The notes under the pieces were generated by a model that saw only the letters and a program-made list of their open reading frames with translations, did not search any database and was not told the origin of the DNA. The position numbers were made by a program, and so were the translations under genes. Shown piece after piece: positions 4,747-63,012 of a stretch of 64,000 bases of DNA. Source of the stretch: Eledone cirrhosa (Eukaryota); contig OZ024755.1 in NCBI GenBank assembly GCA_964016885.1, forward strand, positions 23,994,001-24,058,000, written 5' to 3'. Positions within the stretch are counted from its first letter, which is position 1. Every line of letters starts with the position of its first letter.

Positions 4747-4972
4747 ATATACTTCTGTGCTTTTTCACTATATAATATATATATTATAAAGAGGTGGGAC
4801 CTGGCTCTTTATAATATAACTACACTCTACTAACCCATGTATCGAGTACCCTATTGAGTAATGGTCTAACTAGATTCAACTTGGTTATATCCTGATTTAT
4901 ATATATATATATATGTTGATTTAAAACTGCACTATCCACAAGTGTTTTTTAGCCTTCATATCATGTTCTCCT

Positions 4973-5041
4973 GTTTTATCTGATGAAAACACAAATATTA
5001 TTGCTTGATGATGTTTGTTTTTGAAATGCGCATAATAAAAT
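4973..5041 (+). ncRNA. Predicted type I hammerhead ribozyme (family H-A)
   Basis: GTTTTAT-CTGATGA-stem II (caaatattatt/gatgatgtttg)-GAAA-TGCGCA-TA^ATAAAAT; stem I GTTTTAT/ATAAAAT; homologous to 29341-29405. Confidence 0.7.
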
Positions 5042-5093
5042 ATATGGAACTCCTTTAACCATCTTTTGATCTTATATTATATATATATATATA

Positions 5094-26841: not shown

Positions 26842-27777
26842 GGTGGATGTAGTAGTTGTAGTGGCGCTGGTGATAGTAGTAGTGGTGGTGGTAATGGTAG
26901 TGGTAGTAGTAGTAGTAGTGGTGGTGGTGGATGTAGTAGTTGTAGTGGAGCTGGTGATAGTAGTAGTAGTGGTGGTAATGGTAGTGGTAGTAGTAGTAGT
27001 AGTAGTGGTGGTGGTGGATGTAGTAGTTGTAGTGGCGCTGGTGATAGTAGTAGTAGTGGTGGTAATGGTAGTGGTAGTAGTAGTAGTAGTAGTGGTGGTG
27101 GTGGTGGATGTAGTAGTTGTAGTGGCGCTGGTGATAGTAGTAGTGGTGGTGGTAATGGTAGTGGTAGTAGTAGTGGTGGTGGTGGTGGTTGTAGTTGTAG
27201 TAGTGGTTGTAGTAGTGGTGGTGGTAGTAGTAGTGGTGGCAGTGGTTGTAGTGGTGGTGGTTGTAGTAGTGGTGTTGGTAGTAGTGTTGGTGGTGATTGT
27301 GGTGGTAATAACAGCAGTAGCATTAGTAGCAGTAGCATTAGTAGCAGCACCAGCAGCAGCAGCATTAATAGTAGTAGTAGTAACAACAGCAGCATTAGTA
27401 GTAGTAGTAGCAGCAGCAGCAGTCATTTGATAGTAGTGATAGTAGTGGTGGTAATGGTAGTGGTAGTAGTAGTAGTGGTGGTGGTGGTGGTGGTGGTGGT
27501 GGTTGTAGTTGTAGTAGTGGTAGTAGTAGTGGTTGTAGTGGTGGTGGTAGTAGTAGTGGTGGCAGTTGTGGTGGTGGTTGTAGTGGTGGTTGTAGTGGTG
27601 GTGGTTGTACTAGTGGTGTTGGTAGTAGTGGTGTTGGTAGTAGTGTTGGTGGTGATTGTGGTGGTAATAACAGCAGCAATATTAGTAGCAGTAGCATTAG
27701 TAGTAGCAGTAGCAGTATTAATAGTAGTAGTAGCAACAACAGCAGCATTAGTAGTAGTAGTAGCAGCAGTCATTTGA
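26535..27777. repeat. (GTA/GTG)n trinucleotide array with a higher-order ~60-bp unit and a duplicated terminal block
   Basis: Recurrent GATGTAGTAGTTGTAGTGGCGCTGGTGATAGTAG..GTAATGGTAG; source of the poly-Thr/Val ORFs. Confidence 0.95.
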
Positions 27778-27987
27778 ATAATTAATCTTGAGTGATTTGA
27801 TGAACAGTGATTTGAAATCATTTATGCTTCAAATACATACTGACATATCTTTTTTATTATGCAGTCAGAATAAACACTTGAAAATTATAATTTACTCTGA
27901 AGGATGTCTTAGAAATCAATATAAGTTATCAGGTTTGATGGTTGATTGGGATAAGATGAAGAGAATGTACTTTCTTTGGGAAGAATT

Positions 27988-28179: not shown

Positions 28180-28399
28180 AGATGACATACTTGGCTGAGA
28201 GAGCTGGACTCTTACTACCAACATGGAATGAAGAATTTAACCACAAGTGCTTCAGAAGGCTACTATGCATCCTGTTTAAAGAACAAGACAAACTAGTTTG
28301 TCAGGCAGCAAAGCCGAAGCTGAAGCATATATACAGTATGTGCCACCCTATCCAACCTTCCTATACATCTCTCATGAGGTCAGGCTGAAACACTCTAAA

Positions 28400-28750
28400 G
28401 TAGTCTTGATGGTGTCACAACAAACACACTCAGTCCACAATGTAAACTAGTTGTGGAGGTGTCATGACAAAAAGCACCCAGTACTCACAGTAAAGTGATT
28501 GTGGAGGTATCACAACAAAAAGCACTCAGTCCACACTGTAAAGTGGTTGTGGAGGTTTCAAAACAAAAAAAAAGCACCCAGTACTCACTGTAAATGAGGT
28601 TGGTGTTAGGAAGAGCATCCAGCTGTAGAAATCAAGCCAAAATCAATTCTCTATGAGCAAGACATGGTCACCTGACCTAACATTACCCACAACAGGACAA
28701 AATGTCTAACCCAAGCCAGCATAGAAAAAGGAATGTAAAATGGTGATGAT
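28400..28750 (+). mobile_element. Retroposon family C with internal tandem subrepeats
   Basis: Repeated CACAACAAAAAGCACCCAGTCCACACTGTAAAGTGG-type units, GTTAGGAAGAGCATCCAGCTGTAG, GAT tail; homologous to 34558-34957. Confidence 0.8.
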
Positions 28751-29198
28751 GTAGTGACACTTTCTCAAGGAGTTGTGACCAGGAGATAGTATCAGCATTT
28801 GAAAAACCAATGGAAATACTGGTCAGCTCCTCTATTATCCTGTTTACAGAACAAGATAAACTAGCTTGTCAGGCAGAAAATAAATAAATATGTAGCGACA
28901 CTTCCACCAGGAGTTGTGGCCAGGAGTTATTGTTAACTGGTAGAATCTGGTGGTCAGCTCCTGTCTTATCCTTTATTTCCAGAATGGGGTATCTATCTTT
29001 TATACTTCTATTCACTCATATGTAAAGTAGCCAAGAAACCTAATTACAAACCATGATATAAATATATATATAATGTAGGAGGTGAGTTTTATTGTAGCAC
29101 AATAAAGCAATGCAAATATCGGATAAGTAGCACTCAACAGTTTATAGGACTGGAGTATAAATAATATAAAATCAAAAGATGATTAAAAGAGTTCCATG

Positions 29199-29263
29199 TA
29201 TTTTATTATGCGCATTTCAAAAACAAATATGGGATGATATTTGCGTTCTCATCAGATAAAATA
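29199..29263 (-). ncRNA. Predicted type I hammerhead ribozyme (family H-A), left arm of foldback
   Basis: Minus strand TATTTTAT-CTGATGA-GAACGCAAATAT-CATCCC-ATATTTGTTTTT-GAAA-TGCGCA-TA^ATAAAATA; 8-bp stem I. Confidence 0.75.
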
Positions 29264-29340
29264 GGGAGACATGATATGAAGCTTAAAAAACACTTCACTG
29301 CTCGCAAGAGTTTTTTAAGCTTCATATCATGTCTCCCTAA

Positions 29341-29405
29341 TTTATCTGATGAGAACGCAAATATCATCCCATGATGATATTTGTTTTTGAAATGCGCATA
29401 ATAAA
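29341..29405 (+). ncRNA. Predicted type I hammerhead ribozyme (family H-A), right arm of foldback
   Basis: TTTAT-CTGATGA-GAACGCAAATATCATC-CCAT-GATGATATTTGTTTTT-GAAA-TGCGCA-TA^ATAAA. Confidence 0.75.
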
Positions 29406-29807
29406 ATACATGGAACTCTTTAAAACTTAAAACCAAAACTGAATACTAACCAATACTATTACTAATTTTCACTTATTCCTAATTAAACTATTTTTCACTG
29501 TGAACAATTTGTCAGCATTTTCTTTTCCGTTTACCAATATATATATATATATATATATATATCTTATCTCTGATGTTCTGATTGAGCTAACATCGTATTT
29601 AAAATTGAGTGGCACTGCTTCTAGTGTGCAGCAATTTTTAGGCAACTTAATCAGAGAAACAATTGTTAGACTGTAAATAAATTCTCTTTTTTGTACTGTT
29701 GACCATGTTATTCTTCACTTTTTCAATTTTATATGTCTTATATATATATATATATATGTCTTATATATATATATATGTTTTATATATATATATATGTCAT
29801 ATATATA

Positions 29808-30128
29808 TACTGAAAATAATAAAAAGGATGAAGTGTTATGTTTTCATTACGTTTATTGAGTTGTGACATACATTTTGTGAACCATAACAGATGTCTGACG
29901 AGGTTTTGATTCCCGAGTCAGGCCAGATCAATACAGATTGAACCTTGAACTGATCAACCATGAAATGCTTGTCAACACTCAATAAACGCAATGAAGATAT
30001 AACACTTCATCCTTTTTATTATTTTCAGTATTACATTCTACTTAGTACTACACCAATATACCCACTTGAAACTATGCATTGAGTGCTCACTTTGGTGAAC
30101 CTACAGTAACTGGACGTTACAATCCCCA
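29808..30128 (+). mobile_element. TA-flanked foldback element (family H-D) with degenerate hammerhead at 29892-29976
   Basis: ~70-bp inverted arms 29808-30030; loop holds CTGACGA-GGTT...AACC-AT-GAAA-TGCTT-GTC followed by AATAAA; related copy at 32404-32600. Confidence 0.7.
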
Positions 30129-62669: not shown

Positions 62670-63012
62670 GGAGGCACATGGCTTAGTGGTTAGAGCATTG
62701 GCCTTGCAATCAAAAGGTTGTGAGTTCAATTCTCAGACTGGCGATATGTTGTTTCCTTGAGCAAGACACTTTATTTCACATTGCTCCAGTTTACTCAGCT
62801 GTAGAAATGAGATGATAGGGAGTGGGGTCCCTATCATTCCACTGCAAAGTGGTCGTGGAGGTGCCACGGCAAAAAAGCACCCAGCACTCACTGTAAATGA
62901 GGGTGGTGTTAGGAAGGGCATCCAGCTGTAGAAATCAAGCCAAAATCAGTTCCCGTCCCATCCTTGCAAGCAGGGAAAAAGCAGATGTAAAATGAAATGA
63001 TGATGATGATGA
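62670..63012 (+). mobile_element. Full-length SINE-B (tRNA head, CORE-like middle, family-C tail with (GAT)n)
   Basis: TGGCTTAGTGG A-box, GAGTTCAATTC B-box, CCTTGAGCAAGACACTT, GGAAGGGCATCC; flanked by a 100-bp direct repeat. Confidence 0.9.

What the first reader, a model, noticed from the sequence alone, without database searches (positions are those of the whole stretch)
29186..29421. Two intact hammerheads back-to-back on opposite strands in one foldback
The ~106/112-bp arms each carry a complete core. The left copy has a 6-nt deletion at the stem II apex that still leaves a hairpin. Transcription from either strand yields one sense ribozyme and its antisense, which could sequester it. The left arm continues into a tail (~29070-29185) ending at a TA run, so the layout is a full terminus plus an inverted partial copy.
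Basis: partly seen in the sequence, partly recalled or inferred. Interest (0 to 1): 0.75.

Follow-up and report, generated by a model that had tools for sequence, protein, structure and literature searches.

The report
Hydra-clade Penelope retrotransposon stub, twin hammerheads
The two back-to-back hammerhead motifs are the two ends of a short, broken insertion of a common Penelope-type jumping gene, a layout already described in print, and read-through RNA is predicted to zip into a double helix that would silence both.

Summary
Confirmed: a 113/119-bp inverted repeat with a complete type I hammerhead core in each arm (cuts after 29400 on +, between 29207 and 29206 on -). It is not a stand-alone ribozyme switch. 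It is a 5'-truncated insertion of a Hydra-clade Penelope-like retroelement (PLE): a terminal repeat plus 83-nt tail joined head-to-head to an inverted, tail-less copy at a TA run. The genome holds at least 4,721 arms and long copies with an RT + C-terminal GIY-YIG ORF showing the Hydra motifs. Junctions differ per copy, so the foldback is likely remade at each insertion by two primings. Opposite-strand hammerhead pairs in PLEs are published (PMC4209133; Penelope-13_HM in PMC8557442 supplement). Read-through RNA is predicted to be duplex (-166 vs -14 kcal/mol). Most arms run through the cut site, and 28 of 67 stop at a fixed start 69 nt upstream of the core, so uncut RNA is likely the main template. 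One lead: 23 of 64 arms ending within q128-121 end exactly at the cut, a possible trace of cleavage in vivo, but other hotspots are as strong. The scan noted a related Penelope stub in another genome.

The parts
29056..29072 (.). TA-rich run at the insertion site (target of the element)
   Evidence: sequence; TA or CA/TA runs flank the tail end in 55 of 55 tail-anchored copies (25 of them were selected for a CA start)
29073..29155 (-). 83-nt tail (q176-258 of the 258-nt terminal unit), present on this arm only
   Evidence: in the full copy L105 the same 83 nt continue to the ORF start about 80 nt further
29156..29295 (-). pLTR part of the tail-bearing arm (q30-175, with q95-100 deleted and one substitution)
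29199..29263 (-). type I hammerhead, left copy: stem I 8 bp, core 29255-29249, stem II shortened by 6 nt, GAAA 29218-29215, palindromic stem III, predicted cut 29207/29206
29289..29295 (.). 7-nt microhomology at which the two arms are joined (q13-19 of one arm = complement of q30-36 of the other)
   Evidence: the same junction, or its mirror image, recurs in several other copies
29289..29424 (+). inverted, tail-less pLTR arm (q13-148; three substitutions; q149-175 and the TA run lost)
29338..29408 (+). type I hammerhead, right copy: stem I 5 bp contiguous, core 29346-29352, 15-bp stem II with a C.U mismatch, GAAA 29389-29392, palindromic stem III, predicted cut after 29400
4911..5085 (+). solo pLTR (q1-175) of a sister subfamily between TA runs, third hammerhead core at 4980, predicted cut after 5034

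Best explanation
This is a 5'-truncated insertion of a Hydra-clade Penelope-like retroelement in which two copies of the hammerhead-bearing terminal repeat are joined head-to-head, likely because the element's RT primed twice in a TA run and the two cDNAs were joined by microhomology. Shown: the arms are the terminal unit (q1-258) of a 3.7-kb element whose ORF has RT and C-terminal GIY-YIG domains; inverted arms end at q170-175 in 33 of 38 cases and tail arms at q257-258; junctions vary. Inferred: transcription starts near q1 in the 5' pLTR; the endonuclease nicks both strands of (TA)n; one cDNA starts at q258 and one at about q175, internally in the RNA as shown for the anole PLE; both run towards the RNA 5' end and their 3' ends anneal (here through 7 nt). 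The hammerhead is a passenger inherited from the parent, where it sits in the 5' UTR and is likely a dimer- or protein-assisted ribozyme. This stub lacks q1-12 on both arms and is likely inert: read-through RNA would form a 113-bp duplex.
For: Family and parent: (L105 = pLTR-ORF-pLTR direct repeat, unit 3,668 bp; ORFs of 713-760 aa in L104-L106). Domains: homologues P0037 (GIY-YIG, E 1e-5, above cut-off) and P0081 (RVT_1, E 4.4e-5, below cut-off), aligned over both domains. Hydra motifs (against PMC8557442 section 11). Two primings: in 12 of 31 adjacent inverted pairs the inverted arm reaches more than 20 nt further 5' than the tail arm, in some with no overlap at all (L066, L068, L075), so it cannot be a fold-back copy of the tail cDNA. 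Fixed RNA start: 28 of 67 family arms that span the core stop at q-1 to q8 and 26 continue into the 3' UTR (74 matches less 7 that belong to other hammerhead families, removed by eye). Both arms share subfamily variants (66 sites), and only 5 are private to one copy and present in both arms versus 79 private to one arm, as expected if both came from one source RNA without later homogenisation. Hammerhead structure kept across subfamilies: pair 10.1-11.1 is G-U, G-C or A-U in 28 of 28 rows; 5 pairs change on both sides, 0 of 500 shuffles reach this, and slid controls pair 33-60% vs 95% (rows hand-picked, related, and two rows are a distant family that supplies 4 of the 5 double changes). Duplex -166.3 vs arm -14.4 kcal/mol.
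Against: No RNA evidence for this locus or family could be obtained. Pfam and PDB give no direct hit for the element's own ORF; domain calls rest on homologues and motifs, and no tree with named Hydra proteins was built. Asymmetric central deletion of a once-perfect palindrome could also give varied junctions in the short copies. The transcription start at q1 is inferred from cDNA ends only. L105's ORF carries a stop and a frameshift near its start, and no fully intact copy was verified among the long copies fetched.
Confidence: 0.92

Rival explanations
1. The whole foldback is a non-autonomous mini-element (MITE- or retrozyme-like) that is copied as one unit.
For: 40 of 40 scored candidates show the same 360-400-nt layout; several copies share the junction at the 7-nt hairpin.
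Against: selected for that layout. In the 55 tail-anchored copies arm lengths range from 30 nt to kilobases and run into the 3' UTR and ORF; the centres printed for 27 of 30 copies vary from 73 to 104 nt; the recurring junction sits on a microhomology; an exact head-to-tail junction of tail end and pLTR start was found 0 times in the genome (one exact pattern).
Confidence: 0.04
2. The pair is a host-selected sense/antisense ribozyme switch or a source of hairpin small RNAs.
For: A 113-bp near-perfect duplex would be a Dicer or ADAR substrate if transcribed (general knowledge); both cores are complete.
Against: The copy differs from its subfamily majority by only 4 substitutions and one deletion in 365 nt, i.e. 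it is young, so complete cores need no selection; it has lost part of the right arm; 11 of 55 tail-anchored copies also keep both cores; no host exon was recognised nearby in a crude ORF listing.
Confidence: 0.04

Closest known systems
Hydra clade of C-terminal EN+ Penelope-like elements (PMC8557442; e.g. Penelope-13_HM, Hydra-1_Obim)
   Same: RT + C-terminal GIY-YIG, RW(K/I), DKT, CxCx5C linker, no CCHH, CxxC..E..N..CxH, (TA)n insertion, hammerhead near the 3' end; Penelope-13_HM is listed with a 5'-truncated inverted copy and the same hammerhead on both strands (supplement files S1/S2).
   Different: Hammerhead sequence differs from every Hydra hammerhead row seen, including Hydra-1_oBim; stem II is 15 bp with a conserved C.Y mismatch; unit length 3.7 kb (Hydra generally <3 kb) with a long 3' UTR and an Asn-rich insert before the linker; tail 83 nt rather than the usual 30-40.
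Metazoan PLE hammerheads, including opposite-strand pairs 100-700 bp apart in Schistosoma mansoni (PMC4209133)
   Same: Type I, long helix II, short palindromic helix III, dimer-type; pairs on opposite strands ascribed to truncated PLEs.
   Different: Stem I is 8 bp (4-5 bp there); no extra nucleotide between A9 and 10.1; 10.1-11.1 is G-U in this subfamily rather than G-C.
PAc, Poseidon element of Anolis carolinensis (PMC11167929)
   Same: Two RT start sites that bound the tail, AT-rich targets, extension from both strands, uncut RNA as main template.
   Different: Other clade; PAc's ORF starts inside stem II, here about 300 nt downstream of the cut; start sites 83 nt apart.
Non-LTR (animal) retrozymes (bioRxiv 10.64898/2026.07.22.740005)
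   Same: Short non-coding type I hammerhead repeats derived from PLE pLTRs.
   Different: Retrozymes are head-to-tail tandems; this is a head-to-head inverted pair.

Membership tests
Penelope-like element, EN+ | Single ORF with RT and C-terminal GIY-YIG endonuclease | tested here: met
   Parent copies L104-L106; YRDD motif; alignment to homologues with Pfam GIY-YIG and RVT_1 hits. Direct Pfam scan of the ORF itself gave nothing. The window stub has no ORF.
Penelope-like element, EN+ | pLTRs in direct/partial-tandem or inverted arrangement | tested here: met
   L105 direct; L106, L086, L089 inverted; L104, L107 both.
Penelope-like element, EN+ | Tail extension at one end only | tested here: met
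   33 of 38 inverted arms end at q170-175, tail arms at q257-258; 83 nt, longer than the 30-40 nt in print.
Hydra clade | RWK motif, DKT in place of DKG | tested here: met
   RWI in the element, RW(K/R/T) in homologues; DKT in L104 and L105.
Hydra clade | CxCX5C linker, CCHH absent, CxxC and CxH around the conserved E and N | tested here: met
   CNCPVRTKC; one Cys only near the first GIY-YIG strand; CNLC..E..N..CLH.
Hydra clade | Insertion into (TA)n | tested here: met
Hydra clade | RT groups with named Hydra families in a phylogeny | not tested
   No named Hydra protein sequences were fetched.
Neptune clade (my first guess) | CX2-5CxxC linker and CCHH motif inside GIY-YIG | tested here: not met
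   vs PMC8557442 passages
Type I hammerhead ribozyme | Core CUGANGA, GAAA, NUH and three helices | tested here: met
   helix III minimal and palindromic; Rfam models do not score it.
Type I hammerhead ribozyme | Self-cleavage | not testable with these tools
   Only the indirect breakpoint excess at the cut, which is inconclusive.
Non-LTR retrozyme | Head-to-tail tandem of hammerhead units | tested here: not met
   Arms are inverted; exact tandem junction found 0 times.

The most novel reading that the evidence does not exclude
The family's insertion ends record hammerhead cleavage in vivo: a few percent of cDNAs ran off an RNA whose 5' end was made by the ribozyme (23 of 64 arms ending in q128-121 stop exactly at the cut; 4 loci are perfect foldbacks centred on it, none at the equally TAT-ending q122). 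Together with the fixed start at q1 this would show that PLE mini-foldbacks are paired strong-stop cDNAs from both uncut and cut RNA, and would give genomic evidence on the open question of whether EN+ PLE hammerheads cut in cells.
Probability: 0.35. Interest if true: 0.6.

Novelty: new member of a known kind. Interest (0 to 1): 0.27.

Why it matters
As a locus it is ordinary: one of thousands of Penelope stubs. The family is a useful natural data set: thousands of young insertions with two defined priming sites, a defined RNA start and variable joints bear on how PLEs make inverted ends, and the excess of ends at the cut site offers a testable handle on hammerhead function in EN+ PLEs, which PMC8557442 calls unclear and for which PMC11167929 found no RNA-seq ends at the cut.

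Tried and rejected
Rfam: no hammerhead model hit. Circular 258-nt retrozyme idea: exact tandem junction absent and copies extend into UTR/ORF; rejected. Neptune assignment (notes): rejected after the motif comparison. DNA search with the 71-nt 5' piece of the 4911 copy returned nothing, not even itself, so it shows nothing. Pfam/PDB on the ORF: no hit. Single-sequence AlphaFold model, pLDDT 31.8, not used. Expression: no RNA holder listed; read laying not used. Wide-window breakpoint test (70 regions from the 100 places listed of 996, the rest left out by eye as indels or duplications): of 72 arms ending in q151-114, 6 (5 loci) end at q125, but q151 has 8, q134 7, q130 8 (3 from one tandem locus) and q116 6, all at palindromes or TA microhomology; no step at the cut. 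A by-eye count (13 of 29 ends in q135-125) was not borne out by it. An apparent cluster of ends at q62 was mostly other hammerhead families sharing stem I. Literature searches listed no paper whose title or abstract start reports PLE breakpoints at the hammerhead cut; I read four papers in part, most subscription papers are not searched, and the bioRxiv supplements were not available, so absence from print is not established.

Full report
Observation. The region holds an inverted repeat, 29183-29295 against 29306-29424, with a 10-nt loop, 4 mismatches and a 6-nt gap in the left arm. A descriptor scan of both strands of the 64-kb window found three type I hammerhead cores: 29346 (+), 29255 (-) and 4980 (+). 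Each reads stem I, CUGAUGA, a long stem II with one C.U mismatch, GAAA, a two-pair stem III around CG within the palindrome AUGCGCAU, and an AUA cut triplet. Rfam does not score the motif. The isolated right arm folds with stems I and II (z -3.15), the left more weakly (z -0.41). The whole foldback folds at -166.3 kcal/mol with every core base paired.

Family. A search with 29060-29440 gave 1,664 candidates; all 40 scored matched the tail and both arms at 88-100%. One exact 22-mer downstream of the cut, with a partial filter on a later base, occurs 4,721 times, a lower bound on arms. I number the terminal unit q1-258 (core C3 at q70, cut after q124). In 55 copies chosen by the tail alone, 38 have an inverted arm within the locus, 31 of them adjacent; 33 of 38 inverted arms end at q170-175; tail arms end at q257-258 beside a TA or CA/TA run; 11 keep two complete cores. 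The window copy is tail arm q30-258 (q95-100 deleted, one substitution) plus inverted arm q13-148 (three substitutions), joined through a 7-nt microhomology; it has lost q149-175 and the TA run on the right.

Parent. Many tail arms continue upstream through a shared 3' UTR into an ORF. A protein search gave 150 scored copies at 84-100%. L105 is a direct-repeat copy, unit-ORF-unit, 3,668 bp; L104-L106 have open frames of 713-760 aa. The ORF starts about 80 nt after q258, so the hammerhead lies in the 5' UTR. Pfam and PDB do not score the ORF itself, but 203 homologues at E<=1e-10 include proteins with GIY-YIG and RVT_1 hits that align over both domains. The motifs RWI/RWK, DKT, CxCx5C, no CCHH, and CxxC..E..N..CxH match the Hydra clade as defined in PMC8557442 section 11; my first label, Neptune, fails on the linker and CCHH. 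No tree was built.

Mechanism. Shown: two fixed 3' ends (q175, q258), TA targets, variable centres (73-104 nt between the cores in 27 of 30 copies printed), joints at short palindromes or microhomologies, and 12 of 31 adjacent pairs in which the inverted arm holds more than 20 nt that the tail arm lacks. Of 67 family arms that span the core, 28 stop at q-1 to q8 and 26 go on into the 3' UTR (7 of 74 matches removed by eye as other families). Inferred: the RNA starts near q1; the enzyme nicks both strands and primes internally at q258 and about q175, as the anole element PAc does at two sites that bound its tail (PMC11167929); cDNAs primed in the 5' pLTR run off at q1, which caps their length and explains the many short foldbacks; their 3' ends anneal by microhomology. 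Asymmetric deletion of a perfect palindrome could add to the junction variety. The hammerhead fold is kept across subfamilies: the 10.1-11.1 pair is G-U, G-C or A-U in 28 of 28 rows and 95% of cells pair, against 33-60% in slid controls; rows were hand-picked and related, and most double changes come from one distant family. That argues for selection in the active element, not in this stub. Because the arms meet at their 5' ends, read-through from either side makes antisense first, and both arms lack q1-12, so the stub is likely inert.

Do copies end at the cut? Most do not: by eye about 86 of the 100 arms listed run through it, in line with uncut RNA being the main substrate in PMC11167929. 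A narrow test selected arms ending in q128-121 (220 hits, 100 listed; 73 arms examined, 27 left out by eye as internal deletions or duplications, 9 more flagged by the script): 23 of 64 end exactly at q125 (20 of 58 loci; binomial p 1.4e-6 against 1/8), against 11 at q122, which ends in the same TAT (p 0.03 by arm, weaker by locus); 4 loci are perfect foldbacks centred on the cut and none on q122. About four of the nine flagged rows look like true joints at q121-123 and would lower the share to 23 of 68. Against: in a wider window q125 (6 of 72 arms) is no higher than q151, q134, q130 or q116, which are microhomology hotspots, and RT stalling in front of helix III would give the same position. 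My rough scaling is a few percent of arms. I rate cleavage as the cause at 0.35.

Comparison with print. PMC4209133 (parts 1-2 of 4 read) reports dual minimal hammerheads 100-700 bp apart on opposite strands in S. mansoni, ascribes them to truncated PLEs, and finds no monomer and low dimer cleavage. PMC8557442 (passages, section 11, a supplement search and part 2 of 59 of its supplement) describes inverted 5'-truncated copies, tails and (TA)n targeting, and lists Penelope-13_HM, a Hydra element, with the same hammerhead on both strands; none of the Hydra hammerheads listed there has this sequence. PMC11167929 (parts 1-2 of 4) gives the biochemical model and a protein-assisted hammerhead. bioRxiv 10.64898/2026.07.22.740005 (part 1 of 5 and passages) treats tandem retrozymes, of which 1 of 9 dimers cleaved; its supplements were not available. 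Other papers were seen as search listings only.

Verdict. Real feature, known kind: a new Hydra-clade PLE family member with an inverted terminal pair. Interest 0.27; the breakpoint excess at the cut is the one lead worth a genome-wide test.

Noticed in passing
window 29807-30125: A second, older repeat family with the same build 380 bp away: short inverted arm (29807-29875), long arm with tail ending near a TA run, decayed hammerhead-like core at 29895 (+), very long stem II, predicted cut after 29973; relatives show a palindromic stem III; 2,879 candidates, best others 75-85% identical. Parent ORF not sought.
   Followed up: partly
window 4911-5085: Solo tail-less pLTR of a sister subfamily (A10.1-U11.1) between TA runs.
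   Followed up: yes
L003:1010-1268; also L034, L055, L072, L110, L124, L127: Other hammerhead families share the same stem I and core start but differ in stem II and flanks; L003 holds a second head-to-head pair of such a family with the same C.Y mismatch at the fourth stem II position.
   Followed up: no
G000, pattern: A subfamily with the canonical G10.1-C11.1 pair has 639 exact hits; several listed pairs lie 110-290 bp apart on opposite strands.
   Followed up: partly
L061-L085: 162 copies have a short CA run between the tail end and the TA run; could be target sequence or slippage at priming.
   Followed up: no
window 27002-27846: G-rich, strongly skewed degenerate tandem array with 9-15-nt periods.
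   Followed up: no
window 28391-28594: Four to five copies of a 48-nt tandem unit.
   Followed up: no
window 62677-62740: Weak Rfam tRNA hit (30.3 bits, E 0.026), likely a tRNA-derived repeat head (interpretation from general knowledge).
   Followed up: no
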